From Eledone cirrhosa (lineage: Eukaryota), in contig OZ024743.1 in the NCBI GenBank assembly GCA_964016885.1, forward strand, positions 42,594,001-42,658,000: a stretch of DNA of 64,000 bases, in the 5' to 3' direction. The translations under genes were made by a program, and so were the position numbers. Of this stretch, positions 8,500 to 64,000 are shown piece by piece. The notes beneath the pieces were generated by a model. That model did not search any database, was not told the origin of the DNA, and saw nothing but the letters and a program-made list of their open reading frames with translations. Each line of letters opens with the position of its first letter. The stretch's first letter is position 1.

Positions 8500-13380
<4,881 letters not shown>

Positions 13381-14531: not shown

Positions 14532-17106
14532 TACAATTAAATAATTGGTCTGGCACCCAGCGGTATTAGGGTCGCAACCCGGCAAAAGGGGCTCTGGTGA
14601 ATATCCAAGAGGTGTCTGTTTCGGCAACCGGCGGCTTCGGGTCGTTTCTGTCCCTGCGTCTGTGGAGAATCTGCGGCAAACAGGACGTTTTTTCCCCTCG
14701 TTCGGGATATACATACGGGTTTTTTGGGGACCGCTTGTGAATTCACTACTCCCATGACACTTCTTCCATGAATCCTACAAATACGAACTATGAATACGAA
14801 TTGCCTCCCCGCTACGAACGCAATGCAAAACAACAACTCTCCTACCGCTATGGCTCTACAGACTACTCCCGCAGTAGTCCCGCTCTTCAGACGAAGGAAG
14901 GAATTGAGGGTGGCGTGCTGGAACGTCCGAATACTTCGTGACGACAGTGTCCAGGCACTTACAATGAAGGCTCTGCGCAGGTACTGCGTTTGTGTCGCTT
15001 GCCTTTTAGAAGTTCGATTTCCCGGTGTTTGTCATCTTCCAATCACAGTTCCTGGCGAGGACATCTCCTACCACTTGTACCATAGTGGCGTGACTGACAA
15101 CAGTGGCCTTCACGGGGTCGCTGTAGCGCTCAAGCCCGACGCGCAAGCGGCTCTGCTGGCGTGACAGCCGATCTCACACCGACTCGCGCTGGTTCGATTG
15201 AAGGGTCAAATCTCCAACGTCAGCGTAATTGCCGTCTACGCTCCCACACTCAATGCGGACGAGGCGGACAAGACGCAGTTCTATGCCGATATCCAAACAA
15301 CCATGGATGGCGTCTCCTCCAGTGATGTTCTCATTATCTCTGGGGATTGGAATGCGCGGACAGGGCCAACTAATGATACAACACGGCATATTCTAAGACG
15401 CTTCGCCCTAGGCGTACCCTGTGACAATGGTCAACGGCTCGTATCCTTCGCGGATGCCAATCGTCTTATCGTCACTAACACCCGGTTCCAATATCCTCGG
15501 CGTCACCTCGTCACGTGGCGATCCAATGAGGGAAGAACGGCCAATCAGATTGACTGCATCCTTATCAGATCTCGTTGGGCCAGCTCACTGAGGACTCGCG
15601 TGCGTATCGAGGGGCTGATACGGGCAGTGAGCATGGGTCGGACCATACTCTTGTTCGAGCAACCCTTCGTCTGCGGCTGCAGGCAAACCTCCTCCCAACC
15701 GCAAGAAAAGGATCGACATCTCGCGACACAAGCTCGATGATGGAAATGCTTTCCGGCTAGAGCTGCGAAACCGATTACAAATACTGAGTAACGAAGTGGA
15801 ACAGCAACCGGAGCAGGAGTGGAATGCGCTCAGGGCGGCGACGGTTGAGGTGGCCAGAGAGCATCTCGGGTCGACCCAAAGACGCCATCGGCACTGGATC
15901 TCCGGCGGAACTCTTGAACTCGCGGAGAGGGCGAGAGTGGCCCGACTCGCGGCTGCATCCAATCTTCAAGATCTCCGACGTCGCACAACACGGGCTAATC
16001 GGGCCGATCGGAATGCACACTGGCGCGAATTTGCGCAGCAGACGGAGAGGGCAGCAGCCTGTGGTGACTCGCGCAAGCTCTACCAACTGGTGAAGCGGGC
16101 CAGCCGAAGCTGTACGGGTATCAGCGAGACGATCCGTGATCGGAACGGGGCGGTCATTACCAATCTTAATGACCGGCTAGTCCGTTGGCGGGACCATTTC
16201 TCCGAGCTGTTCAACCACCCGCCACCACCCACGCCAACCTACGTGCAGCCTTCCGGAGAAGAATACGGGACGTTAACGGGACAGATGTACAAGTTGCTCA
16301 TGAAAGGGTGCACACTGCAGCCGATGCTGTTTCGCCAAGTCGAAATTCATGACGTCACTGGTCTTGCCTGATGCCTGGCAGCCAATATCTCTCGAGGGCG
16401 TCGACCTGGATGATGTGGAGTCCTTCGTTTACCTGGGCTCAACAGTGGTTACAACGGGACAGGGCGCAGCCGAAGTCAAACGTCGCATAGGTGCTGCCAG
16501 ATCCACTTTTGGGCGCCTCCAGCGGTGTCTGTGGGACAGAAGAGAGATCACCTCGGCGACCAAAGGGCGAATCTACCAGGCCGTCCTTCGCACTATCCTC
16601 CTCTATGGCTGTGAAACATGGCCTATGAGGGTAGTCGATCAACGGGGGCTGGAGGTCTTCGACAATGACTGTCTCCGCCGCATTATTCTCTGTCCACGCG
16701 TTGATCGGGTACCTACCGCCAGTCATCGTCTTCGCCTGAATCTTCGACCCCTTCCTTCAGTGCTTCTGCAACGGCGCTTGAGATGGTTTGGTCACGCGGC
16801 TCGGCTCCCTGAGGGTGAACTGATCTACGATGTTCTCCTCCCACCTCCACTCCCTAACTGGCGCAAGCGTGTTGACGGGCAGCTGAAGACCTGGGCAACG
16901 ACGATCAAGGAGGACCTCTCAGAACTCTCAGGTCCGCAGGTCGTCGGCCTGCGCCGATGGAACCGTGACTGACTCGCTATCGCCAGTGACCTATCCCGGG
17001 ACCGTCGTGCGTGGGCTGCAATGGTTCGTGATGCCGTCAGGACAAGGGGAGAAGCCGGCTCAACCCGTCCAGTGTGAATGTCGACACAAGTACAAGTACA
17101 AGTAAG
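14532..17106 (+). mobile_element. RTE-clade LINE with both ends intact, RT core internally deleted
   Basis: APE motifs (ACWNVR, VIAVYAPT, GDWNARTG, NQIDCIL, GSDH), RTE C-terminus (FVYLGS, ILLYGCETW, RRLRWFGHAAR), (ACAAGT)3 tail, 12-bp TSD taatatataatc at 14520-14531 and 17107-17118. Confidence 0.9.
14790..17077 (+). pseudogene. RTE ORF (AP endonuclease plus RT C-terminal part) with stops, frameshifts and a deletion near 16265
   Basis: ORF track 14790-15164, 15198-15740, 15796-16371, 16349-16972; no YADD-containing segment. Confidence 0.85.
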
Positions 17107-20814: not shown

Positions 20815-21150
20815 TGGAGTATAAATAATATAAGATCAAAAGATGATTAAAAGAGTTCGAAGTATTTTATTATGCACATTTCAAAACCAAATATCATCAT
20901 GGGATGATATCTGCGTTCTCATCAGATAAAATAGGGATACATGATATGAAGCTTAAAAAACACTTTTGAATAGTGAAGTATTAAATCAACTTCACTATTC
21001 ACAAGTGTTTTTTAAGCTTCATATCATGTATCCCTATTTTATGTGATGAGAACGCAGATACCATCCCATGATGATATTTGTTTTTGAAATGCGCATACAA
21101 AAATACTTGGAACTCTTTTAACCATCTTTTGATCTTATATTATATATATA
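20815..21150. repeat. Head-to-head inverted pLTR pair with a hammerhead at 20863-20933(-) and a decayed mirror copy on +
   Basis: Minus strand: tattttat-CTGATGA-gaac..gatatcatcccatgatgatattt..gtttt-GAAA-tgtgca-TA-ataaaata. Mirror copy has GTGATGA and tgcgca. Confidence 0.75.
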
Positions 21151-23611
21151 TACCTTGGCATACTTAGCAAGAATATTTTAGACAGAATAATACCACAAAT
21201 TAAGGAATTATCTTATTTAGAATTATGGAAAGGAACTAATGAAGTTATCGAATGGTTTAAGGAAATTAAATATAATTATATTAATAAGTTTATTCAATTG
21301 GTATTGCTAATTATTACTCATCCATCACTCCTAATCTACTTAATAAAGTACTAACATATGCATTTAAACATACAGACTTAATTAGTAATGAAATGCACAT
21401 TATCTTATCGGCACGGAAAACATTAATTGAATTTAACAACCAAATCTGGACTAGAGCAGATAGAAATAATAATTTCGATATCACTATGGGATCATCCGAT
21501 TCCCCTCAGGTAACGGATTGTGTGGGGCTTTTTATAAATAATTCTCTACATAGAAAAATACCGGAGATGACCGGAGGTTTATATCGCGACGATATGCTAT
21601 TACTTATCGAAAATAATAACTGTGAATTAAATAAGAAAAGAAAAGAAATTATACAATGTTTTAATTACCTTAATCTAAAAGTAGAAATAGAGAATAACCA
21701 TAAAATAGTTAATTTTCGAGATGTAACCTTAAACCTTTACACATGTCTTCAGTATCCATTTCACAAACTAAACGAGAACTTAAACTACGTTAATTTTAAC
21801 TCTAATCACCCCATAATCCGTTAAAAATACTATAGTGAATTCTGTACAGCAGCGCATTTCTAGAATTTCAGGAATATATTTGATGATAAAGCACATTATT
21901 ACAACGAAGGAATATATTTGATGATAAAGCACATTATTACAACGAAGCGTTAGGAGGAGCTGGATATAGAAATAAAATTAAGAATAATAATATAACAACT
22001 AACCATAATCTTAACAATTTTAACAACTATAATAGAAAACCTTACAATAATTCGGAAAACAAAAAAAGAAATAGAACTAGGAATATATTATGGTTCGCTC
22101 CTCCTTTCTCATTAAATATTAAAACTCCTATTGCTAAACTATTCTTTAAAGCTCTTGACAAATGCTTCCCTAGAACACATATGTTGGTTCTTCATAATCT
22201 TAACAATTTTAACAACTATAATAGAAAACCTTACAATAGAAAACCTTAAATAACAATTGTTTAGCTAAAAATATAGTATATAATTTTAATGTAAAAACTA
22301 ATTTAAATTCATTTAATTATGTAGGATCTTCTTCCACGGAGTTTAAATCTCGTCTTAATAACCATAAATGCACTTTTACGAATTTAAGAAAAAAATCTTC
22401 AACTTCTCTATCTAGCTTATTATGAGACCTTAAATCAAACAACATTAAATATTCTTTACTTTGGAATATTATTTCAAAAGCTCCTCCATTTAACTCCTCT
22501 TCCGAAAATTGTGATAGAGGAAATATTCTTTATATTAAAAAGCAAAAGTTCCGTGAACGTAAGAAACAATCTTTTCAGTTGCTGCAAACATAGATTGAAT
22601 TCAACGTTTAAATATAAATTTAAAATGTAATATCTAACTTATTCTATTAAATCTATTGAACCTATCGATAAATCATTAGATTCCTTCATTTGACTGCTTA
22701 AAACTCTCCCTAAAAATGTTTTCCTTGAAAATTTTTCTAGATAAACATACTGAAAGCTTTTAAACGAGAGAGATTTTTGGAAAATATTTTTTTTGAAAGT
22801 TTCTCCTATTTTTTGAAAATTTCTCTTTTTTTTGAAAATTTCTCTTTCTTTGAAAATTTCTCGTATGGTTATAACAAATTAAGTTAAGCATACTGAGAGT
22901 TAAATATTATATAAAAAAGAATTAAAATTTATTTTTATACTGAATTTTTTATATATATTCTTGTATATTTTTAAAAATTATGTCTTAAATATTTTTTTTA
23001 ATTATATTGTTTCAAACTTATATTGCTTAAAATTATAAGAATATATTTCCAAATTGTAATTCCTCTTAAAATTATAATCCTTTTAAAATTATAACTCATT
23101 TTTTATTTTATATTTTATATTATGTACTTTATATTTATCTATATATATATGATGTATGTCTACCTATATGTGTATATATATGTGTATGTATCTATATATG
23201 GGTTGTGTATCTCTGTTTATATATATTATTGGTGCATGTGTCTATGTCTCTATATATGTATATATACAATTCGAATACACTCTGTTATAAATGGTTTCTT
23301 ACGGTTTATGCTAAACAAACTTATATTATAACAGTCACAACTATATAACTGGTAGATTTATGAGATATATAAAATTTATAAAATTTATAAAATTATAACT
23401 TACTAGTAAATAATATAAGGTTTTTATAATCTTAACTTTCTTTTATCATCTTAACATTTATAACATATAAGTAAATAACTTAATTTCCTTCACGCTGTAT
23501 TGCTATTACATAGAAACGATTTTTCTCCGATTTCTCCGAAAAATCTATGAATTTCCATAACTTTAGAAAAATTCCTATATCTTAAACATAAAAAATCTTT
23601 TTTTGTATATA

Positions 23612-32199: not shown

Positions 32200-35100
32200 T
32201 TATCATTTACAAAATTACGTTGGAGCCTCAAAAACAAAAACAAAATAACAATATACGCACATCACACACGCACGCACACACACACACACACACACATACA
32301 ACACACATCCCAACAACAACAGACACACAGACACAAACAAAAATAACAACACACACAACAATAATAACATACACGGAGACAACAACAACAACACATCTCA
32401 ACAACAGCACACATCAACAATAACGCACACACATTCTATGCCTCTCACCACTACCAAAATCTTAACAAACACACAGACACAGAAAACAGATAATGACAGT
32501 AACACAGAAATAAGGGAAGGTAATAGGATTGAAAGGAGAAGGGAATCTATCAATACTGACAGAGAAAATAACTAGGACGAACACACAGACACACAAAATA
32601 GAGTAGATAATAACAATGAGACAGGAGTAATAATGAGAGATATAGAAACGACCATGAAGCTGTTGGTGGAAATAGAAATAGAAATAACACAATTAACAAT
32701 AACAATAGCAATAGTACACATAAAGCAGCAGCCTGGAACTCGAGTTTTTATAATCCTTCCGATAAGTCTTTCGACGTGCGACGAGTCCACGCCACGACTT
32801 TGGCTTTTAACAAACGCACGCAATTGCCGTCGCAGGTCGATGAACAAACAGAAGCACAATTTAGTATAGCTAGATCTAAACTTAGAAACATTATAGAACA
32901 GTATAGTAAGAAGCAAAATAGAATCGAGGCCCAGCAACTGGGAGAAAAATCTGCAAATGGCTTGCGTAAGTTCATGCAGCGCTCGCGTAATGGAGAGATT
33001 GCATGCTTTCCAACAGACAAGTCTGGCAGAATGTCGGTTGACAGTCTGTCAAACTACATCCAGGCAATGCAACCCCACATCACTAACACAAGAGAGGTAA
33101 CACCACAAGAGCATGAGGATAGGGAAAAAATCCTCAATACCCATATGATGATGTAGACAAACATAATGCAGCCCAACAAAAGGACTGCCAACAACTTCCA
33201 GGCCTGGAACAATGACGTGCCAGCGTTGTATGGGCTTCGGAAAGACCATAAAACGTGCAGTGACCCTGTAACAGGACCACCAACACGGCCAGTCTGTGGA
33301 GCTAACATTGCTAGTAACTACAGACTTTCCTACTTCCTCTCCCCGATCATACGCCTCATCATTGAAATGTCCCCAGATATATGTGACAGCACGGAGGACC
33401 TCCTCAGCAGAATCAGCGAAGGTAACCGATCTAGGGACCTAACAAACTGCAAAATAGGCAGTATGGATGTTGTGTCCCTATATCCATCTATTGACGAGGA
33501 TTTTTCTGTGGAGAAATGCGTAGAAATGATCAGTGAGAGCAATGTTGAATTTCGTGGGATTGATACCAGTGAGCTGGGACTCCTACTTAAACTTACTTAT
33601 AGTAATAATTATCTAGATACATATGACTTTAGCAACCTGAGCCCTACAAGACCAGCAAGAGGCAGACAACCTACCATTACCTCAATGGCCAAGAAAACCC
33701 ACACAGATAGATGGAACGGGTGGACCAGAGCCATACGAAAACCACGATGAACTAAAGAAAATGATTGCACATGCGGTGGGGGCCAGTATAAAATTAACCC
33801 TTAAGGAACATATGTTCAAATTTAATGGAAAAACATATGCCCAAGAGGATGGAGCAGCCATTGGTGTTAGCATTGCAGGTGACATAGCTCACCTATTCAT
33901 GGTATGATGGGACAATAGACTTAAACTTAAAGAACAATTAGATGACACCAACCTCTTAATCCTGATAATGTACTCCCGCTACGTTGATGATATAAACATT
34001 GTAGTAAAAACACTCCCACTAGAGAACAGTCAGGAATTAGAGAAAAACACCATGGAAAGCATCCAGCAAATAGCTAACTCCGTCCACCAGAGTATTAGAG
34101 TTACTATAGACTACCCAAGCAAACACCCCAACCATCGGTTACCTGTACTAGACACAGAGCTCTGGTTAGATACTATCAATAACAAAAAACAGATCCTCCA
34201 TTCCCATTATGCTAAACCCATGACTTCCAAATATCTGATCCACCGAAACTCAGCTGTTTCGGACCACACCTAAATCAACATACTGATTGTGGATTTGGTA
34301 CGGGTGATGATAAACGTGTCCCGCATGTGCAACACCAAAGAACTAGAGAGACACATACAACACTTCATCCACCGTACGCAGTTCTCTGGTTACAATCAGA
34401 GAGATAAAATCAGAGTATATAGAGGAGCCAGAACCAAATGAGAAAAAATGGTAAATAATGATACAAATGGAACCTGCCCCTTGTATAGGAGCACATTTTT
34501 GGAATAGAATAGAAAGAACTAGGAATAAGGTTAATAGAATAAACTCATGGTATGATAGCAATAAATACCAGAGTGTAATGTTTATCGATACAACCCCTAG
34601 AGGTGAATTAGCTTACAAATTTAGAAGGGCCCTAGATAAACATAAACTCAATATTAAGATAGTAGAAAGACCAGGTACCTCCATAAAAACATTTATTAGC
34701 AATACATACCCTTTTCAAAGACCTCCCTGTATAGATAAGAAATGTATAATCTGTAAATTAAGCCCCCATATTAACTGTAAAACTAGAAATGTAGTATATA
34801 GCATAAGACGTACTGAAGGACAATGTAGAGATAAGAATATAGTGTACATAGGTGAGACAGCTCGAAGTATAGGGGAACGCATAAATGAACACTGGCGAGA
34901 CCTTCAAGATAGTAATGAATCATCTGTACTCTACCAACATGCTAAAATAGAACATAACGGTAAATTAGAGAACATAGAAATAAAAATAGAATCTACACAC
35001 AGAAAAGACGTAATGGTTAGACAAATCACAGAGGCAATAAACATAAATGAACTCCAACCAAAATTAAATAGAAAACATGAATGGAACAGCAACATCACAA

Positions 35101-35498
35101 CTTACAATTAAGGACAAAATGAAAACACACACGCACATAGAACAAACAACCAACCAGTAACATGTACATAAACAAATAAATAAACAAATATAAACACACA
35201 CAGACACCCAGATGTAACACATGCGCAAACTAAGCACACAACACACACCAAAAACAAGATGGCGTAGAACAGAACAAAGGAGAGGCACAAAAACAAAGAA
35301 AAGAATCCCCAGTCAATGAAGAGTTCACAGAATGTGTGACGAAAGAACTTTGACAATGTATAAACAATCATCTGGTTGTGGAACCAACCAACCAACTGGA
35401 AATTTATAAATTCCTAAATTTATAAATGTATTATAATAAATTGAAGTGAAAGCATTGGTGCGTGTGTTTCTTATTGGCAACATGACCCTCCCAAAGTA

Positions 35499-50175: not shown

Positions 50176-50323
50176 ACACACACACACACATTTTTGCAAC
50201 ACGAATTGGCGCGAAACTTATTTTAATACCTCTGGAGCCACTTTTTTCACATAAAACAGGCAGAATTTCCAAAACTGATCAGATTAGAGCAAACATCACG
50301 GGCGCTCTATCTCAAAATTATTT

Positions 50324-53300
50324 GCCCAATAAAGCCAAAATTGTATCTCAACCTAACGGGAGATAATTACATATAAAGGTTTACATGTATATATATATAA
50401 AGTCATAGATATATATGTGTTTTGCAACGCGTCACTTTGTGACTCAATGAAGAATTAATAAATTAAATAATCAGAGCTATATGTCATTAAACATGCCTAT
50501 AGAACCACTAGATAAAATATATACCGTTTCCTCTCCCAATTAGCATAAGTAACCATATAAAAATTCAATTAGACCAAGCTATAAGAATAAAGCCTCTGAT
50601 GATGAAATCTCCAACACATAACCGAAAGCAGCCCTTAGCAGCGGTTGCGACGGGGTATTTATCGAGTATTTCGACAGCGTGTATAAATCGACCAGATATA
50701 CAGTCAACTAAACAGAATTAGGTGTAAAATAAACTATTAGAAAAGTGAACATATTTAGTTACCTCTACCATGGTTTCGTCCGCATTTTAAGATATCCGAT
50801 AACATTGGAAATCTAGAGTTTCAGACTCTTCAGGCGTTAGCTCAAATTTAGACAGTTAATTTTCCAAAGTTATCGCGCCAAGAATACATTCAAAAATGGC
50901 TAAGAATCGTGACGTGGCATCGGTCAAGTTAGAAAGGATGTGATTAGTTGCTTACTGCTTGTAGGCTTTTGCTAGAAAACGCAGCCCAATAGAGCCAAAA
51001 TTGTATCTCAACCTAACGGGAGATTATTACATATAAAGGTTTACATATATATATATATATATAAAGTCATAGATATATGTGTGTTTTGCGACGGGTCACT
51101 TTCTGGCTCAATGAAGAATTAATAAATTAAATAATCAGAGCTATGTATCATAAAGCATGCCTATAGAATCACCAAATAAAATATATACCGCTTCCTCTCC
51201 CAATTAGCATAATTAACCATATAAAAATTCAATTAGACCAAGCTATAAGAATAAAGGCTCTTATGAAGAAATCACCGACATATAACCGGACGCAGCCCTT
51301 CGCAGCGGCTACGCCGGGGTATTTATCGACTATTTCGACACCGTGTATAAATCGACCAGATATACAGTCAACTAAACAGAATTAGGTGTAAAATAAACTA
51401 GAAGAAAAGTGAACATATTTAGTAACCTCTACCATGGTTTCCTCCTCTTTTTAAGATATCCGATAACATTGGAGATTTAGAGTTTCGGACTATTGAGTAG
51501 TTAGCTCAAATTTAGACAATTAATTATCCCAAGTGATCGCGCCAAGAATACATTGAAAAATGGCTAAGAAACATGAAGTGGCAGCAGTCAAGTTAGAAAG
51601 GATGTGATTAGTTGTTTACTGCTTGTAGGTTTTTTGCTAGAAAGCGCAGCCCAATACAGCCAAAATTGTATCTCAACCTAACGGGAGATTATTACATATA
51701 AAGGTTTACATATATATATAAAGTCATAGATATATATGTGTTTTGCAACAGGTCACTTTGTGGCTCAATGTAGAATTAATAAATTAAATAATCAGAGCTA
51801 TATATCATAAAACATGCCTATAGAATCACCAGATAAAATCTATACCGTTTCCTCTCCCAATTAGCATAATTAACCATATAAAAAATCAATTAGACCAAGC
51901 TATAAGAATAAAGGCTCTTATGAAGAAATCTCCGACAAATAACCGAAAGCAGCCCTTCGCAGCGGTTGCGACGGGGTATTTATCGACTATTTCGACACCA
52001 TATATAAATCTTCCGGATATACAGTCAACTAAGCAGAATTAGGTGTAAAATAAACTAGAAGAAAAGTGAACATATTTTGTTAAGTCTACCATGGTTTCGT
52101 CCGCATTTTAAGATATCCGATAACGTTGGAAATTTAGAGTTACGGACTCTTCAGGAGTTAGCTCAAATTTAGACAATTAATTTTCCAAAGTGATCGCGCC
52201 AAGAATGAATTAAAAAATGGCTAAGAATCGTGACGCGGCAGCGGTCATGTTAGAAAAGATGTGATTAGTTGTTTACTGCTTGTAGGCTTTTTGCTAGAAA
52301 GCGCAGCCCAATACAGCCAAAATTGTATCTCAACCAAACGGGAGATTATTACATATAAAGGTTTACATATATATATAAAGTCATAGATATATATGTGTTT
52401 TGCAACGGGTCACTTTGTGGCTCAATAAAGAATTAATAAATTAAATAATCAGAGCTATATATCATAAAACATGCCTATAGAATCACCAGATAAAATCTAT
52501 ACCGTTTCCTCTCCCAATTAGCATAATTAACCATATAAAAAATCAATTAGACCAAGCTATAAGAATAAAGGCTCTTATGAAGAAATCTCCGACAAATAAC
52601 CGAAAGCAGCCCTTCGCAGCGGTTGCGACGGGGTATTTATCGACTATTTCGACACCATATATAAATCTTCCGGATATACAGTCAACTAAGCAGAATTAGG
52701 TGTAAAATAAACTAGAAGAAAAGTGAACATATTTAGCTACCTGTACCATGGTTTCGTCCGCAGTTTAAGATATCCGATAACATTGGAAATCTAGAATTTC
52801 GGACTCTTCAGGAGTTAACTCAAATTTAGACAATTAATTTTCCAAAGTGATCTCGTCAAGAATACATTCAAACATGGCTAAGAATCATGAAGTGGCATCG
52901 GTCAAGTTAGAAAGGATGTGATTAGGTGTTTAATGCTCGTAGGTTTTTTGCTAGAAAGCACAGACCAATATAGTCAAAATTGTATCTCAACCTAACGGAA
53001 GATTATTACATATAAAGGTTTACATATATATATAAAGTCATAGATATATATGTGTTTTGCAACAGGTCACTTTGTGGCTCAATGAAGAATTAATAAATTA
53101 AATAATCAGAGCTATATATCATAAAACATGCCTATAGAATCACCAGATAAAATCTATACCGTTTCCTCTCCCAACTAGCATAATTAACCATATAAAAAAT
53201 CAATTAGACCAAGCTATAAGAATAAAGGCTCTTATGAAGAAATCTCCGACAAATAACCGAAAGCAGCCCTTCGCAGCGGTTGCGACGGGGTATTTATCGA

Positions 53301-56300
53301 CTATTTCGACACCGTGTATAAATCGACCAGATGTACAGTCAACTAAGCAGAATTAGGTGTAAAATAAACTAGATGAAAAGTGAACATGGTTAGTTACCTC
53401 TACCATGGTTTCCTCCTCTATTTAAGATATCCGATAACATTGGAGATTTAGAGTTTCGGACTCTTCAGGAGTTAGCTCAAATTTAGACAATTAATTACCA
53501 AAGTGATCTCTTTAAGAATGCATTAAAAAATGGCTAAGAAACATGAAGTGGCAGCAGTCAAGTTAGAAAGGATGTGATTAGTTGCTTACTGCTTGTAGGC
53601 TTTTGCTAGAAAACGCAGCCCAATACAGCCAAAATTGTATCTCAACCTAACGGAAGATTATTACATATAAAGGTTTACATATATGTATAAAGTCATAGAT
53701 ATATATGTGTTTTGCAACGGGTCACTTTGTGGCTCAATGAAGAATTAATAAATTAAATAATCAGAGCTATATATCATAAAACATGCCTATAGAATCACTA
53801 TATAAAATCTATACCGTTTCCTCTTCCAATTAGCATAATTAAGCATATAAAAAATCAATTAGACCAAGCTATAAGAATAAAGGCTCTTATGAAGAAATCT
53901 CCGACAAATAACCGAAAGCAGCTATTCGCGGCCGTAGTGACGGGGTATTTATCGAGTAATTCGACAGCGTGTATAAATCGACCAGATATACAGTCAACTT
54001 AAAAGAATTAGGTGTAACATAAACTAGAAGAAAAGTGAACATATTTAGTTACCTCTACCATGGTTTCGTCCGCATTTTAAGATATCCAATAACATTGGAA
54101 ATCTAGAGTTTCGGACTCTTCAGGAGGTAGCTCAAATTTAGACAATTAATTTTGCAAAGTGGTCGCGCCAAGAATACATTAAAAATGTCTAAGAATCGTG
54201 ACGTGGCAGCGATCAAGTTAGAAAGGATGTGATTAGTTGCTTACTGCTTGTAGGTTTTTGCTAGAAAACGCAGCCCAATACAGACAAAATTGTATCTCAA
54301 CCTAACGGCAGATTATTACATATAAAGGTTTACATATATGTATAAAGTCATAGATATATATGTGTTTGCAACGGGTCACTTTGTGGCTCAATGAAGAATT
54401 AATAAATTAAATAATCAGAGCTATGTATCATAAAACATGCCTATAGAATCACCAAATAAAATATATACCGCTTCCTCTCCCAATTAGCATAATTAACCAT
54501 ATAAAAATTCAATTAGACCAAGCTATAAGAATAAAGGCTCTTATGAAGAAATCACCGACATATAACCGGACGCAGCCCTTCGCAGCGGCTACGCCGGGGT
54601 ATTTATCGACTATTTCGACACCGTGTATAAATCGACCAGATATACAGTCAACTAAACAGAATTAGGTGTAAAATAAACTAGAAGAAAAGTGAACATATTT
54701 AGTAACCTCTACCATGGTTTCCTCCTCTTTTTAAGATATCCGATAACATTGGAGATTTAGAGTTTCGGACTATTGAGTAGTTAGCTCAAATTTAGACAAT
54801 TAATTATCCCAAGTGATCGCGCCAAGAATACATTGAAAAATGGCTAAGAAACATGAAGTGGCAGCAGTCAAGTTAGAAAGGATGTGATTAGTTGTTTACT
54901 GCTTGTAGGTTTTTTGCTAGAAAGCGCAGCCCAATACAGCCAAAATTGTATCTCAACCTAACGGGAGATTATTACATATAAAGGTTTACATATATATATA
55001 AAGTCATAGATATATATGTGTTTTGCAACAGGTCACTTTGTGGCTCAATGTAGAATTAATAAATTAAATAATCAGAGCTATATATCATAAAACATGCCTA
55101 TAGAATCACCAGATAAAATCTATACCGTTTCCTCTCCCAATTAGCATAATTAACCATATAAAAAATCAATTAGACCAAGCTATAAGAATAAAGGCTCTTA
55201 TGAAGAAATCACCGAAAAATAACCTGACGCAGCCCTTCGCGTCAGTTGCGACGGGGTATTTATCGACTATTTCGACAGCGTGTATAAATCGACCAGATAT
55301 ACAGTCAACTAAACAGAATTAGGTGAAAAATAAACTAGAAGAAAGTGAACATATTTAGTTACCTCTACCTAGGTTTCGTCCGCATTTTAAGATATCCGAT
55401 AACATTGGAGATTTAGAGTTTCGGACTCTTCAGGAGTTCGCTCAAATTTAGACAATTAATTTTCCAAAGTGATCGCGCCAAGAATACATTCAAAGACGGC
55501 TAAGAATTATGAAGTGGCAGCGGTCAAGTTAGAAAGGATGTGATTAGTTGCTTACTGCTTGTAGGCTTTTGCTAGAAAACGCAGCCCAATACAACCAAAG
55601 TTGTATCTCAACCTAATGGGAGATTATTATATATAAAGGTTTACATATATATATAAAGTCATAGATATATGTGTTTTGCAACGCGTCACTTTGTTGCTCA
55701 ATGAAGAATTAATAAATTAAATATTCAGAGCTAAATATCATAAATCATGCCTATAGAATCACCAAATAAAATATAAACCGTTTATTCTCCCAATTAGCAT
55801 AATTAACCATATAAAAAATCAATTAGACCAAGCTATAAGAATAAAGGGTCTTATGAAGAAATCTCCGACAAATAACCCAAAGCAGCCCTTCGCAGCGGTT
55901 GCGACGGGGTATTTATCGACTAGTTCGACACCGTGTATAAATCGTCCAGATATACAGTCAACTAAACAGAATTATGTGTAAAATAAACTAGAAGAAAAGT
56001 GAACATATTTATTTAACCTCTACCATGGTTTCTTCCGCATTTTAAGATATCCAATAACATTGGAAATCTAGAGTTTCGGACTCTTCAGGAGTTAGTTCAA
56101 ATTTAGACAATTAATTTTCCAAAGTAATCGGGCCAAGAATACATTCAAACATGGCTAAGACTCGTGAGGTGGCTGCGGTCAAGTTAGAAAGGATGTGATT
56201 AGTTGCTTACTGCTTGTAGGCATTTTGCTAGAAAGCGCAGCATAATAAAGCCATAATTGTATCTCAACCTACCGGGAGATTATTACATATAAAGGTTTAA

Positions 56301-59300
56301 ATAAATATATAAAGTCATAGATATATATGTGTTTAGCAAGGGTTCACTTTGAGGATCAATGAAGAACTAAGAAATTAAATAATCAGAGCTATATATCAGA
56401 AAACATGCTGATAGAATCACCAGATAAAATATAAACCGTTTCCTCTCCCAATTAGCATAATTAACCATATAAAAAAATCAATTAGACCATGCTATAAGAA
56501 GAAAGGCTCTTATGAAGAAATCTCCGACAAATAACCGAAAGCAGCCCTTCGCAGCGGTTGCGACGGGGTATTTATCGACTATTTCGACACCATATATAAA
56601 TCTTCCGGATATACAGTCAACTAAGCAGAATTAGGTGTAAAATAAACTAGAAGAAAAGTGAACATATTTAGCTACCTCTACCATGGTTTCGTCCGCAGTT
56701 TAAGATATCCGATAACATTGGAAATCTAGAATTTCGGACTCTTCAGGAGTTAACTCAAATTTAGACAATTAATTTTCCAAAGTGATCTCGTCAAGAATAC
56801 ATTCAAACATGGCTAAGAATCATGAAGTGGCATCGGTCAAGTTAGAAAGGATGTGATTAGGTGTTTAATGCTCGTAGGTTTTTTGCTAGAAAGCACAGAC
56901 CAATATAGTCAAAATTGTATCTCAACCTAACGGAAGATTATTACATATAAAGGTTTACATATATATATAAAGTCATAGATATATATGTGTTTTGCAACAG
57001 GTCACTTTGTGGCTCAATGAAGAATTAATAAATTAAATAATCAGAGCTATATATCATAAAACATGCCTATAGAATCACCAGATAAAATCTATACCGTTTC
57101 CTCTCCCAACTAGCATAATTAACCATATAAAAAATCAATTAGACCAAGCTATAAGAATAAAGGCTCTTATGAAGAAATCTCCGACAAATAACCGAAAGCA
57201 GCCCTTCGCAGCGGTTGCGACGGGGTATTTATCGACTATTTCGACACCGTGTATAAATCGACCAGATGTACAGTCAACTAAGCAGAATTAGGTGTAAAAT
57301 AAACTAGATGAAAAGTGAACATGGTTAGTTACCTCTACCATGGTTTCCTCCTCTATTTAAGATATCCGATAACATTGGAGATTTAGAGTTTCGGACTCTT
57401 CAGGAGTTAGCTCAAATTTAGACAATTAATTTTCCAAAGTGATCTCTTTAAGAATGCATTAAAAAATGGCTAAGAAACATGAAGTGGCAGCAGTCAAGTT
57501 AGAAAGGATGTGATTAGTTGCTTACTGCTTGTAGGCTTTTGCTAGAAAACGCAGCCCAATACAGCCAAAATTGTATCTCAACCTAACGGAAGATTATTAC
57601 ATATAAAGGTTTACATATATGTATAAAGTCATAGATATATATGTGTTTTGCAACGGGTCACTTTGTGGCTCAATGAAGAATTAATAAATTAAATAATCAG
57701 AGCTATATATCATAAAACATGCCTATAGAATCACTATATAAAATCTATACCGTTTCCTCTTCCAATTAGCATAATTAAGCATATAAAAAATCAATTAGAC
57801 CAAGCTATAAGAATAAAGGCTCTTATGAAGAAATCTCCGACAAATAACCGAAAGCAGCTATTCGCGGCCGTAGTGACGGGGTATTTATCGAGTAATTCGA
57901 CAGCGTGTATAAATCGACCAGATATACAGTCAACTTAAAAGAATTAGGTGTAACATAAACTAGAAGAAAAGTGAACATATTTAGTTACCTCTACCATGGT
58001 TTCGTCCGCATTTTAAGATATCCAATAACATTGGAAATCTAGAGTTTCGGACTCTTCAGGAGGTAGCTCAAATTTAGACAATTAATTTTGCAAAGTGGTC
58101 GCGCCAAGAATACATTAAAAATGTCTAAGAATCGTGACGTGGCAGCGATCAAGTTAGAAAGGATGTGATTAGTTGCTTACTGCTTGTAGGCTTTTGCTAG
58201 AAAACGCAGCCCAATACAGACAAAATTGTATCTCAACCTAACGGCAGATTATTACATATAAAGGTTTACATATATGTATAAAGTCATAGATATATATGTG
58301 TTTGCAACGGGTCACTTTGTGGCTCAATGAAGAATTAATAAATTAAATAATCAGAGCTATGTATCATAAAACATGCCTATAGAATCACCAAATAAAATAT
58401 ATACCGCTTCCTCTCCCAATTAGCATAATTAACCATATAAAAATTCAATTAGACCAAGCTATAAGAATAAAGGCTCTTATGAAGAAATCACCGACATATA
58501 ACCGGACGCAGCCCTTCGCAGCGGCTACGCCGGGGTATTTATCGACTATTTCGACACCGTGTATAAATCGACCAGATATACAGTCAACTAAACAGAATTA
58601 GGTGTAAAATAAACTAGAAGAAAAGTGAACATATTTAGTAACCTCTACCATGGTTTCCTCCTCTTTTTAAGATATCCGATAACATTGGAGATTTAGAGTT
58701 TCGGACTATTGAGTAGTTAGCTCAAATTTAGACAATTAATTATCCCAAGTGATCGCGCCAAGAATACATTGAAAAATGGCTAAGAAACATGAAGTGGCAG
58801 CAGTCAAGTTAGAAAGGATGTGATTAGTTGTTTACTGCTTGTAGGTTTTTTGCTAGAAAGCGCAGCCCAATACAGCCAAAATTGTATCTCAACCTAACGG
58901 GAGATTATTACATATAAAGGTTTACATATATATATAAAGTCATAGATATATATGTGTTTTGCAACAGGTCACTTTGTGGCTCAATGTAGAATTAATAAAT
59001 TAAATAATCAGAGCTATATATCATAAAACATGCCTATAGAATCACCAGATAAAATCTATACCGTTTCCTCTCCCAATTAGCATAATTAACCATATAAAAA
59101 ATCAATTAGACCAAGCTATAAGAATAAAGGCTCTTATGAAGAAATCACCGAAAAATAACCTGACGCAGCCCTTCGCGTCAGTTGCGACGGGGTATTTATC
59201 GACTATTTCGACAGCGTGTATAAATCGACCAGATATACAGTCAACTAAACAGAATTAGGTGAAAAATAAACTAGAAGAAAGTGAACATATTTAGTTACCT

Positions 59301-62300
59301 CTACCTAGGTTTCGTCCGCATTTTAAGATATCCGATAACATTGGAGATTTAGAGTTTCGGACTCTTCAGGAGTTCGCTCAAATTTAGACAATTAATTTTC
59401 CAAAGTGATCGCGCCAAGAATACATTCAAAGACGGCTAAGAATTATGAAGTGGCAGCGGTCAAGTTAGAAAGGATGTGATTAGTTGCTTACTGCTTGTAG
59501 GCTTTTGCTAGAAAACGCAGCCCAATACAACCAAAGTTGTATCTCAACCTAATGGGAGATTATTATATATAAAGGTTTACATATATATATAAAGTCATAG
59601 ATATATGTGTTTTGCAACGCGTCACTTTGTTGCTCAATGAAGAATTAATAAATTAAATATTCAGAGCTAAATATCATAAATCATGCCTATAGAATCACCA
59701 AATAAAATATAAACCGTTTATTCTCCCAATTAGCATAATTAACCATATAAAAAATCAATTAGACCAAGCTATAAGAATAAAGGGTCTTATGAAGAAATCT
59801 CCGACAAATAACCCAAAGCAGCCCTTCGCAGCGGTTGCGACGGGGTATTTATCGACTAGTTCGACACCGTGTATAAATCGTCCAGATATACAGTCAACTA
59901 AACAGAATTATGTGTAAAATAAACTAGAAGAAAAGTGAACATATTTATTTAACCTCTACCATGGTTTCTTCCGCATTTTAAGATATCCAATAACATTGGA
60001 AATCTAGAGTTTCGGACTCTTCAGGAGTTAGTTCAAATTTAGACAATTAATTTTCCAAAGTAATCGGGCCAAGAATACATTCAAACATGGCTAAGACTCG
60101 TGAGGTGGCTGCGGTCAAGTTAGAAAGGATGTGATTAGTTGCTTACTGCTTGTAGGCATTTTGCTAGAAAGCGCAGCATAATAAAGCCATAATTGTATCT
60201 CAACCTACCGGGAGATTATTACATATAAAGGTTTAAATAAATATATAAAGTCATAGATATATATGTGTTTTGCAAGGGTTCACTTTGAGGATCAATGAAG
60301 AACTAAGAAATTAAATAATCAGAGCTATATATCATAAAACATGCTGATAGAATCACCAGATAAAATATAAACCGTTTCCTCTCCCAATTAGCATAATTAA
60401 CCATATAAAAAAATCAATTAGACCATGCTATAAGAAGAAAGGCTCTTATGAAGAAATCACCGACAAAAAACCGGACGCAGCCCTTCGCAGCAGTTGCGAC
60501 AGGGTATTTATCGAGTATTTCGACAGCGTGTATAAATCAACCAGATATACAGTCAACAGAATTAGGTGTAAAATAAAATAGAAGAAAAGTAAACATATTT
60601 AGTGACCTCTACCATGGTTTCCTCGGCATTTTAAGATTTTAATATAACATTGGAAATCTAGAGTTTCGGACTCTTCAGGAGTTAGCATCAATTTAGACAA
60701 TTAATTTTCCAAAGTGATCGCGCCAAGAATACATTCAAAAATGGCTAAGAATCGTGACGTGGCAGCGGTCAAGTTGGAAAGGATGTGATTAGTTGCTTAC
60801 TCATTGTAGGCTTTTTGCTAGAAAACGCAGCCTAATACAGCCAAAATTGTATCTCAACCTAACGGGAGATTATTACATATAAAGTTTTACATATATATAT
60901 GTATAAAGTCATAGATATATATGTGTTTCGCAACGGGTCACTTTATGGCTCAATGAAGAATTAGAAAATTAAATAATCAGAGCTATATATCATAAAACAT
61001 GCCTATAGATTCACCAGATAAATATATACCGTTACCTCTCCCAATTAGCATAATTAACCATATAAAAAATCAAATAGACCAAGCTATCAGAATAAAGGAT
61101 CTTATGAAGAAATCTCCGACAAATAACCGAAAGCAGGCCTTCGCGGCCGTCGCGACGCGGTATTTATCGAGTATTTCGACAGCGTGTATAAATCGACCAG
61201 ATATACAGTCAACTAAACAGAATTAGGTGTAAAATGAAATAGAAGAAAAGTGAACATATTTACTTACCTCTACCACGGATTCGTCCGCATTTTAAGATAT
61301 GCGATAACATTGGAAATCTAGAGTTTCGGTCTCTTCAGGATTTAGCTCAAATTTAGACAATTAATTTTCAAAAGTGATCGCGCCAAGAATACATTCAAAA
61401 ATGGCTAAGAATTGTGACGTGGTAGCGGTCAAGTTGGAAAGGATGTGATTAGTTGCTTACTGCTTGTAGGTTTTTTGCTAGAAAACGCAGCCCAATATAG
61501 CAAAAATTGTATCTCAACCTAACACGAGATTATTACATATAAAGGCTTACATATATATATATATAAAGTCATAGATATATATGTGTCTTGCAACAGGTCA
61601 CTTTGTGGCTCTATGAAGAATTAATAAATTAAATAATCAAAACTATATATCATAAAACATGCCTATAGAATCACCAGATACAATATATACCGCTTCCTCT
61701 CCCAATTAGCATAATTAACCATATAAAAATCAATTAGACCATGTTATAAGAATAAAGGCTCTTATGAAGAAATCTCCGACAAATAACCGAAAGCAGCCCT
61801 TCGCAGCGGTTGCGACGGGATATTTATCGATTATCTCGACACCGTGTATAAATCGACCAGATATACAGTCAACTAAAAAGAATTAGGTGTAAAATAAACT
61901 AGAAGAAAAGTGAACATATTTAGTTACCTCTACCATGGTTTCGTCCGCATTTTAAGATATCCGATAACATTGGAAATCTAGAGTTTCGGACTCTTCAGGT
62001 GTTAGCTCAAATTTAGACAGTTAATTTTCCAAAGTGATCGCGCCAAGAATACATTCAAAAAGGTCTAAGATTTGTGACGTGGCAGCGGTCAAGTTAGAAA
62101 GGATGTGATTAGTTGCTTACTGCTTGTGGGCTTTTTGCTAGAAAGCGCAGGCCATTACAGCCAAAATAATATCTCAAACTATCGGAAAATTATTACATAT
62201 AAAGGTTTACATATATATATATATATAAATTCATAGATATATATGTGTTTTACAACGGGTCACTTTGTGGCTCAAAGAAGAATCAATAATTTAAATACCA

Positions 62301-64000
62301 GAGCTATATATCATAAAACATGCCTATAGATTCACCAGATAAAATATATTCTGTTTCCTGTCCCAATTAGCATAATTAACCATTTACAAAATCAATTAGA
62401 CCATGCTATAAGAATAAAGGCTCTTATGAAGAAATCTCGACAAATAACCGAAAGCAGCCCTTCGCAGCGGTTGCGACGGGGTATTTATCGAGTATTTCGA
62501 CACCGTGTATAAATCGACCAGATATACAGTCAACTAAACAGAATTAGGTGTAAAATAAACTAGAAGAAAAGTGAACATATTTAGAAACCTCTACCATGGT
62601 TTCGTCCGCATTTTAAGATATCCAATATCATTGGAAATCTAGAGTTTCGGACGCTTCAGGAGTTAGCTCAAATTTAGACAATTAATTTTCCAAAGTGATC
62701 CCGCAATGAATACATTCAAAAATGGCTAAGTATTGTGACGTGGCAGCGGTCAAGTTAGAAAGGATGTGATTAGTTGCTTACTGCTGGTAGGCTTTTTGCT
62801 AGAAAGCGCAGCCCAATACAGCCAAAATTGTATCTCAACCTAACGGGAGATTATTACATATAAAGGTTTACATATATATATAAAGTCATAGATATATATG
62901 TGTTTTCCGACGGGTCACTTTGTGCCTCAATAAAGAATTAATAAATTAAATAATCAGAACTATATATCTTAAAACATGCCTATAGCATCACCAAATAAAA
63001 TCTATACCGTTTCCTCTCCCAATTAGCATAATTAACCTTATGAAAAATCAATTAGACCAAGCTATAAGAATAAAGGCTCTTATGAAGAAATCACCGCCAA
63101 ATAACCGGGCGCAGCCCTTAGCGACAGTTGCGACTAGGTATTTATCTATTATTTCGACAGCGTGTATAAATCGGCCAGATATAATGTCAACTAAACAGAA
63201 TTAGGTGTAAAATAAACTAGAAGAAAAGTGAACATATTTAGTGACCTCTACCATGGTTTCGGCCTCATTTTCAGATTTCCGATAACATTGGAAATTTAGA
63301 GTTTCGGACTCTTCAGTAGTTAGCTCAAATTTAGCCAATTAATTTTCGAAAGTGATCGCGCCAAGAATACATTCAAAAATGGCTAAGAATTGTGACGTGG
63401 CAGCGGTCAAGTTAGAAAGGATGTGATTAGTTGCTTACTGCTTGTAGGCCTTTTGCTAGAAAACGCAGCCCAATATAGCAAAAATTGTATCTCAACCTAA
63501 CGGGAGATTACATATCAATTAGACCATGCTAACATGAAACATGCCTATAGAATCACCAAATAAAATATATACCGTTTCCTCTCCCAATTAGCATAATTAA
63601 CCTTATGAAAAATCAATTTTACCAAGCTATAAGAATAAAGGCTCTTATGAAGAAATCTCCGACAAATAACCGAAAGCAGCCCTTCGCGGCGGTTGCGATG
63701 GGGTATATATCGAGTATTTCGACAGCGTGTATAAATCGACCAGATATACAGTCAACTAAACAGAATTAGGTGTGAAATAAACTAGAAGAAAAGTGAACAT
63801 ATTTAGTTACCTCTACCATGGTTTAGTCCGCATTTTAAGATATCCGATAACATTGGAAATCTAGAGTTTCGGACTCTTCAGGAGGTAGCTCAAATTTAGA
63901 CAATTAGTTTTCCAAAGTGATCGCGCCAAGAATACATAAAAAAATGGCTAAGAATCGTGACGTGGCAGCGGTCAAGTGAGAAAGGATGTGATTAGTTGCT
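50324..64000. repeat. Satellite array, ~657-bp monomer, 21 copies, running off the window end
   Basis: ttgtatctcaa landmark at 50341, 51001, 51666, 52323, 52980, 53635, 54290, 54946, 55601, 56257, 56915, 57571, 58226, 58882, 59537, 60193, 60847, 61507, 62167 (variant), 62828 and 63485. Confidence 0.97.
54050..54129 (-). ncRNA. Type I hammerhead in satellite monomer (best copy; homologous site in every monomer)
   Basis: Minus strand: tacctc-CTGAAGA-gtccg-[aaactct agatttccaat gtt attggatatct taaaatg]-cggac-GAAA-ccatgg-TA-gaggta. Confidence 0.85.

What the first reader, a model, noticed from the sequence alone, without database searches (positions are those of the whole stretch)
50324..64000. 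657-bp satellite whose every monomer carries a minus-strand hammerhead ribozyme locus
Seen: each monomer has, on the minus strand, CTGAAGA-gtccg...cggac-GAAA-ccatgg-TA flanked by a stem I (perfect tacctc/gaggta at 54050-54129 and 57986-58065). Stem II carries an extra internal hairpin, and stem III is a 6-nt palindrome. Known: HHR satellites exist in newts (satellite 2), Dolichopoda crickets (pDo500) and Schistosoma (Sm-alpha), and metazoan non-LTR retrozymes are processed to monomeric and circular RNAs through dimeric type I HHRs. Inference: this is a >13-kb self-cleaving satellite or amplified retrozyme array with a large monomer. Read-through minus-strand transcripts would be cut into ~657-nt or multimeric RNAs that could circularise and be copied by a Penelope RT. 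I do not recall such a family described in cephalopods, but could not search.
Basis: partly seen in the sequence, partly recalled or inferred. Interest (0 to 1): 0.9.

Follow-up and report, generated by a model that had tools for sequence, protein, structure and literature searches.

The report
Dead-end array of Penelope-spread ribozyme repeat
This 23-kb repeat is one unusually long, now decaying insertion of a non-coding repeat family that carries a predicted self-cutting RNA motif and is scattered in thousands of copies through the genome, most likely pasted there by Penelope-type jumping genes, and its make-up suggests how such an RNA can give birth to a satellite.

Summary
The repeat and its minus-strand type I hammerhead are real, but this is not a stand-alone satellite. 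It is one 23-kb array (about 35 units of 654-665 bp, running 9 kb past the window) of a dispersed non-coding family with thousands of copies and subfamilies 71-97% alike that keep the hammerhead core and covarying stems. Dispersed copies abut (TA)n and end at two fixed points about 105 nt apart; 29 of 30 two-armed insertions with both ends at these points pair one of each, the Penelope-like (PLE) footprint. The array ends in such an inverted arm. It looks like a dead end: 15 of 21 window units keep the core, which decays at the background rate, and a variant fixed in all array units is absent from its four dispersed siblings. About 12 unit lineages radiate from an unresolved base, which fits birth as one long copy of a single monomer. 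Cleavage, expression and the partner PLE were not shown. Verdict: new family of a known kind (non-LTR retrozyme). The scan noted the same footprint in other, shorter families of this genome, but not this family.

The parts
50324..64000 (-). Tandem array of 654-665-bp non-coding units, ribozyme sense on the minus strand; continues beyond the window to about G000:C4:42667300 (about 35 units, 23 kb)
53401..54055 (-). One unit from predicted cut to predicted cut (655 nt; the predicted RNA monomer or circle)
54050..54129 (-). Type I hammerhead: stem I 54129-54124 with 54055-54050, CUGAAGA 54123-54117, stem II 54116-54112 with 54072-54068 enclosing an inner hairpin, GAA 54067-54065, palindromic stem III 54064-54057, predicted cut 54056/54055
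57986..58065 (-). Duplicate of the same hammerhead unit
53768..53790 (-). Short 3'-end site (288 nt after the cut): dispersed copies stop here and run into (TA)n
53662..53690 (-). Long 3'-end site (393 nt after the cut); the 105 nt between the two sites correspond to the PLE 'tail'
52977..60843 (.). Recent duplication of a six-unit block (period about 3,936 bp; five unit pairs 99.7-100% alike, the sixth mosaic); real or assembly-made is not settled
50190..50323 (+). Piece of the 3' end of another repeat (Neptune-like PLE, label from recall) fused to the array at unit position 437; the array's own 3' end is missing, likely deleted

Best explanation
The array is one insertion of a dispersed, non-coding hammerhead repeat family (a non-LTR retrozyme) that was likely written into a (TA)n tract by the reverse transcriptase and endonuclease of a Penelope-like element, likely from a circular RNA monomer, and that has since grown by local duplication and is decaying. 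Shown: dispersed copies, two fixed 3' ends at (TA)n, head-to-head arms with one long and one short end, copies that run across the predicted cut site, a core and stems kept across subfamilies, one founder variant in all array units, background-rate decay of the array's cores. Inferred: a source copy is transcribed through two or more units; hammerheads cut (probably as dimers through the palindromic stem III); the 655-nt monomer is closed by a host ligase; a PLE endonuclease nicks (TA)n and the two DNA ends prime at two internal TA-rich sites of the RNA, giving two arms joined at their 5' ends; here one arm ran round many times (about 12 units), and later block duplications and gene conversion raised the count to about 35.
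For: Dispersal: 3554 first-look candidates, 39 scored; 465 exact matches to a 22-nt core pattern and 2981 to the short-end pattern, controls 0. Ends: 67 of 90 outward ends in 62 loci map at position 288 or 393; among 41 two-armed insertions in 77 loci, 29 are long+short, 1 long+long, 0 short+short, 11 have one other end. Inverted 5'-truncated arms, a tail at one end and microsatellite targets are the PLE traits described in 10.1101/2021.04.23.441226 (passages). The array's far end is an inverted piece ending at 393 before (TA)n. Structure: 13 subfamily representatives, 89% of cells paired, 6 of 21 pairs changed on both sides, 0 of 500 shuffles reach the covariation score; subfamilies 71-97% alike over the unit; a young 690-nt sister subfamily has an intact core, a 6-bp stem I and the same short end. 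One template: three tandem units of L154 share 3 variants and both arms of L156 share 6 variants not seen in the other 24 loci of that subfamily. Founder and dead end: position 465 is A in 35 of 35 array pieces and C in all four dispersed loci of the array's subtype. Tree of 34 array units plus two sibling copies: about 12 lineages from an unresolved base.
Against: No cleavage or expression was shown. No autonomous partner was found: the unit has no similarity to the PLE proteins or PLE ends tested. In the older subfamilies, units of one locus were closer to each other than to the best unit elsewhere in only 2 of 30 tandem and 9 of 36 inverted pairs, with 48 shared against 562 unshared private variants, so the single-template signal rests mainly on the young subfamily. 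Dispersed arms reach only about three units in the loci seen (3-6 kb each), far short of 12. Many copies of the commonest subfamily have an A-C mismatch closing stem II. The monomer folds no better than shuffles (z -0.47); a typical array hammerhead gives z -1.45 and the opposite strand folds better. The 13 representatives were picked for an intact core and are related, so core invariance among them is by choice and the shuffle counts are not probabilities. End positions blur by a few bases where the unit's own TA tract meets (TA)n, and loci were chosen by similarity or pattern.
Confidence: 0.72

Rival explanations
1. Same family and same PLE-type insertion, but the insertion was short (one to three units) and the whole length came later from unequal crossing-over or replication slippage at the DNA level.
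For: Recent block duplications and shared variant tracts show DNA-level turnover; no dispersed arm longer than about three units was seen; array units lie 4.8% from their majority against 2.4% for dispersed copies; 10.64898/2026.07.22.740005 proposes this route (discussion read).
Against: About 12 lineages radiate from a base as deep as the sibling copies, so expansion would have had to be very fast and early.
Confidence: 0.35
2. The array is a working source locus: read-through transcripts are cut, circularised and give the dispersed copies or a functional RNA.
For: 12 of 34 units keep the core and the stem II closing pair; neighbouring intact units exist.
Against: Core mismatches 22 of 374 against 974 of 20277 elsewhere; a pattern for the array's subtype finds 21 matches in the array and 5 at four other loci, none with the array's fixed variant; most of the 69 array minor alleles are absent or rare in about 100 dispersed units. 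Being transcribed is not excluded.
Confidence: 0.1
3. The template was a linear, uncut multimeric transcript of a homogeneous tandem source, and the hammerhead serves only to release it or is vestigial; no circle is involved.
For: Copies crossing the cut site are also expected from uncut RNA; weak stems and A-C closure suggest slow cleavage; only 1 of 9 Xenopus dimers cleaved in vitro.
Against: 3' ends lie at internal sites, not at a cut or a poly(A) end; tandem units with a private haplotype need a homogeneous source for each locus; no large source array of this subtype was found.
Confidence: 0.2
4. The unit is simply the terminal repeat (pLTR) of an autonomous PLE, and the copies are its truncated ends.
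For: PLE pLTRs carry type I hammerheads with palindromic stem III (PMC4209133, part 2 read); a Hydra-like PLE here has a hammerhead with the same stem III (L112, L119).
Against: Units follow each other head to tail with no ORF between them, and no shared 5' continuation into a PLE ORF was found in 77 loci of this family or in the loci of two sister subfamilies, where scattered PLE hits were of mixed types. Descent from a lost pLTR remains possible.
Confidence: 0.08

Closest known systems
Metazoan non-LTR retrozymes (Cervera and de la Pena 2020, PMC7229834: coral, mussel, axolotl; parts 3 and 4 of 6 and passages read, supplement not seen)
   Same: Non-coding, AT-rich tandem units each with a type I hammerhead; short palindromic stem III; weak base of stem II in some families; PLEs in the same genome.
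   Different: Unit of 655-690 nt against about 170-400 nt; stem II carries an inner hairpin; the monomer is not strongly self-paired in prediction; expression as circles is not shown here; here the insertion ends give direct sequence evidence for PLE-type integration, which that paper proposes.
Vertebrate retrozyme survey (Li, Clavereau, Pollet, 10.64898/2026.07.22.740005; parts 1-3 of 5 read, supplements closed)
   Same: Monomers, dimers and multimers; units of 51-972 bp; link to PLEs.
   Different: No mollusc sampled; link drawn from co-occurrence and pLTR homology, not from insertion ends; arrays explained by unequal crossover; no pLTR homologue was found here.
Penelope-like elements with endonuclease (Neptune, Hydra, Naiad clades; 10.1101/2021.04.23.441226, passages read)
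   Same: Inverted 5'-truncated arm, extension at one end only, (TA)n targets, hammerhead in the repeated part (not in Naiad).
   Different: No ORF; the extension is about 105 nt rather than 30-40 bp.
Newt satellite 2 and axolotl HHR_Amex1/2 (as described in PMC7229834); cricket pDo500 and Schistosoma Sm-alpha (recalled, not read)
   Same: Hammerhead-bearing tandem repeats, dimer cleavage expected.
   Different: Here the family is mainly dispersed, and this array appears to be a single decaying offshoot.

Membership tests
Non-LTR retrozyme | Type I hammerhead in the tandem units | tested here: met
   21 of 21 loci, 15 with intact core; Rfam Hammerhead_1 26.9 bits, under the gathering score; covariation across subfamilies
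Non-LTR retrozyme | Non-coding, GC under 45% | tested here: met
   GC 34-36%; no stop-to-stop frame of 120 aa in the array
Non-LTR retrozyme | [quoted passage not shown] | tested here: met
   Neighbouring loci at 52069 and 52726 pass my core and stem check; their rnabob pipeline was not run
Non-LTR retrozyme | Unit size | tested here: inconclusive
   655 nt: above the 170-400 nt of PMC7229834, inside the 51-972 bp of Li et al.
Non-LTR retrozyme | Highly self-paired monomer (reported trait, not a strict criterion) | tested here: not met
   One unit folded as a linear strand, z -0.47 on 20 shuffles
Non-LTR retrozyme | Self-cleavage as monomer or dimer | not testable with these tools
   Bench test needed
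Non-LTR retrozyme | Expression as linear and circular RNA | not testable with these tools
   No RNA run available for the stretch
Non-LTR retrozyme | PLEs present in the same genome | tested here: met
   Broken PLE-like frames in the window; weak GIY-YIG match, E 0.0013, under the cut-off; clade labels are from recall
PLE-type insertion | Inverted 5'-truncated arm, extension at one end only, microsatellite target | tested here: met
   41 two-armed insertions, 29 long+short; ends at (TA)n
Autonomous PLE | ORF for reverse transcriptase and GIY-YIG endonuclease between pLTRs | tested here: not met
   No ORF, no similarity of the unit to ten PLE-like protein pieces (best E 0.076)
Classical satellite DNA | Family present mainly as long tandem arrays | tested here: not met
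   The first 100 listed core matches are single or paired sites; the array's subtype has one array; other large arrays are not excluded

The most novel reading that the evidence does not exclude
The array was born in one step: a Penelope-type reverse transcriptase ran round a single 655-nt ribozyme RNA circle about a dozen times (some 8 kb of cDNA) from one end of a (TA)n break and briefly from the other, so that a satellite arose directly from rolling-circle reverse transcription and only then began ordinary satellite turnover.
Probability: 0.4. Interest if true: 0.65.

Novelty: new member of a known kind. Interest (0 to 1): 0.42.

Why it matters
How animal retrozymes move is proposed but not shown. 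This family gives exact predictions: where the RNA is cut, where copying starts on each side of the break (288 and 393 nt after the cut), and which young subfamily (690 nt) to test. The array is an aged example that links retrotransposition to satellite birth: one founder haplotype, a PLE-type end, a star-like set of units, then duplication and decay. The kind is known and the scan has seen the same footprint in several shorter families of this genome, which limits surprise.

Tried and rejected
Expression: no RNA holder listed; two unlabelled contig runs of one sample were laid and hold the family, which says nothing on RNA. Two patterns taken from loose ends, meant to find a partner element, had no match in the genome. 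Partner search: unit against PLE-like proteins and against a neighbouring Neptune-like element gave only TA-repeat matches; 5' flanks of 41 single arms showed no shared continuation; a short-stem-II hammerhead pattern gave 15 matches, which led to sister subfamilies and to a Hydra-like PLE sharing only stem III. Junctions with other elements (L061, L032, L084) are explained as well by a shared (TA)n target or later deletion and were not used as proof. Rfam found no hammerhead in four dispersed loci, so Rfam is insensitive to the long stem II. The bacterial promoter scan is not relevant to this host. Array units show fewer transitions (41% against 54%) and more clustered changes (22% against 11%) than dispersed copies; divergence differs between the sets, so I draw no conclusion. 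The idea that the array sits in an inverted-repeat DNA transposon was dropped: the flanking inverted pieces are ends of a two-armed PLE-like family.

Full report
Observation. The array starts at 50324 and has units of 654-665 bp, about 90-94% alike, with a six-unit block duplicated almost exactly. It is AT-rich (GC 34-36%) and has no frame of 120 aa. Each of 21 units in the window has a hammerhead locus on the minus strand; Rfam scores only the two with a perfect stem I, below the family threshold. 15 of 21 keep the catalytic core and 10 also keep the pair that closes stem II. With the adjoining genome stretches the array runs to about window coordinate 73300, about 35 units and 23 kb, and ends in an inverted piece followed by (TA)n. 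Positions below count from the base after the predicted cut.

The family is dispersed. The window lies on a 379-Mb contig of a 3.0-Gb genome. That the host is an octopus is my inference from genome build and repeat content and from earlier scan notes; no call names it. One unit finds 3554 first-look candidates, of which 39 were scored. A 22-nt core pattern has 465 exact matches and a pattern for the short end 2981, with 0 in the controls.

Insertion anatomy. In 62 dispersed loci, 34 of 90 outward ends map at position 288 and 33 at 393, mostly running into (TA)n. In 77 loci (duplicates and array loci dropped) there were 41 two-armed, head-to-head insertions and 41 single arms; 29 two-armed ones pair a long with a short end, 1 pairs two long ends, none two short ends, and 11 have one end elsewhere. 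5' ends vary freely. Arms cross the predicted cut site and reach about three units. An inverted 5'-truncated arm, an extension on one end only and microsatellite targets are described for PLEs (10.1101/2021.04.23.441226, passages); there the extension is 30-40 bp, here about 105 nt. A neighbouring PLE-like insertion just beyond the array shows the same build with ends about 40 nt apart. The array's inverted arm ends at 393, so its main arm should have ended at 288; that end is missing, and the array is fused at position 437 to a piece of the other element's 3' end, most simply by a later deletion.

Is the ribozyme under selection? Not in the copies: array cores carry 22 mismatches in 374 bases against 974 in 20277 elsewhere, dispersed cores 17 in 764 against 1022 in 42077 once 38 subfamily-marking columns are set aside, none of which is in the core. 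Between subfamilies it appears so. A hammerhead pattern led to sister subfamilies that are 71-85% alike to the array unit, keep the same short end and mostly an intact core. On 13 representatives 89% of cells pair and 6 of 21 pairs change on both sides; no shuffle reaches the covariation score, 18 of 500 reach the count of pairs. The rows were chosen for an intact core and are related, so only the stem pairing is informative and the counts are not probabilities. Against strong activity: an A-G mismatch in stem I of the array's group, an A-C closure of stem II in many copies, and modest folding scores. A weak base of stem II and dimer-dependent cleavage are reported for axolotl retrozymes (PMC7229834, part 3), and small palindromic stems III for PLE hammerheads (PMC4209133, part 2).

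One template per insertion? In the older subfamilies the signal is weak: units of a locus are 95-96% alike, closer than to the best outside unit in 2 of 30 tandem and 9 of 36 inverted pairs, with 48 shared and 562 unshared private variants. In the young 690-nt subfamily (25 loci) it is clearer: three tandem units of L154 share three variants and both arms of L156 six variants not seen in the other loci. This fits one RNA, most simply a circle, but also a homogeneous tandem source.

What the array is. A pattern for its subtype has 26 matches: 21 in the array, 5 at four dispersed loci. All 35 array pieces that cover position 465 have A; the four siblings and 80 dispersed units have C. So the array stems from one founder haplotype and did not give rise to those siblings; most of its 69 minor alleles are absent or rare in about 100 dispersed units. 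The 34 near-full units fall into 15 groups at 96%; in a tree with two sibling copies, about 12 lineages radiate from an unresolved base (partial units left out, bootstrap not fully settled). Shared tracts of variants across lineages point to gene conversion. A long first copy explains this best, but fast early expansion, or conversion blurring a nested tree, would look similar.

Partner. None was identified. The unit has no similarity to ten PLE-like protein pieces from the window and its extension or to the neighbouring element's ends; a Hydra-like PLE shares only stem III.

Known and new. The kind is known: non-LTR retrozymes (PMC7229834; 10.64898/2026.07.22.740005). Four paper searches listed no description of cephalopod retrozymes; the main text of PMC7229834 has no 'octopus' or 'cephalopod', and a 2026 octopus repeat annotation has no 'ribozyme', 'hammerhead' or 'retrozyme' (PMC13282606, passages). 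Supplements were not seen, subscription papers are not searched, and Dfam and Repbase were not available, so the sequence may exist there as an unclassified repeat. I reached the PLE-footprint reading before looking at earlier scan notes; these report the same footprint for units of 310-534 nt, and a sequence look-up found no note on this family. They are unchecked AI notes and not independent support.

Verdict. A real, probably undescribed family of a known kind; this array is best read as a long, decaying, dead-end insertion. Interest 0.42.

Noticed in passing
window 3827(-), 4542, 5009, 5475(+): A second hammerhead family: 466-bp tandem units on two arms pointing apart.
   Followed up: no
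window 20820-21150: Two-armed element with a hammerhead whose stem II also carries an inner hairpin; in L084 an arm of it is joined head to head to an arm of the 655-nt family, both ending at (TA)n.
   Followed up: partly
window 2787, 24306, 45811, 45954: Further type I hammerheads with 8-bp stem I next to (TA)n, one downstream of a broken PLE-like frame at 21288-21824.
   Followed up: no
window 8992-12593 and 32620-35111: Broken PLE-like reading frames with C-terminal GIY-YIG-like part; weak Pfam match for 34455-35111.
   Followed up: partly
L021:9340-10000 and L022:1-1950: Two-armed Neptune-like insertion beside the array's far end, with 3' ends about 40 nt apart; a relative is fused to the TA tract of a 655-nt unit in L061.
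   Followed up: partly
L151-L180 (e.g. L154:807-2876): Young 690-nt sister subfamily, copies 96-99.7% alike, GUC cut site, 6-bp stem I: the best candidate for cleavage and RNA tests.
   Followed up: partly
window 54150-54260 (minus), upstream of each hammerhead: CCAAT-like and TTGGCGCG (E2F-like, label from recall) motifs kept across subfamilies and also seen in the Neptune-like element's end; possibly an internal promoter. Not tested against chance.
   Followed up: no
L112, L113, L119: Hydra-like PLE whose hammerhead has the same palindromic stem III as this family.
   Followed up: partly
window 14772-16972: Broken LINE-like frames with endonuclease and reverse-transcriptase-like text (label from recall).
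   Followed up: no
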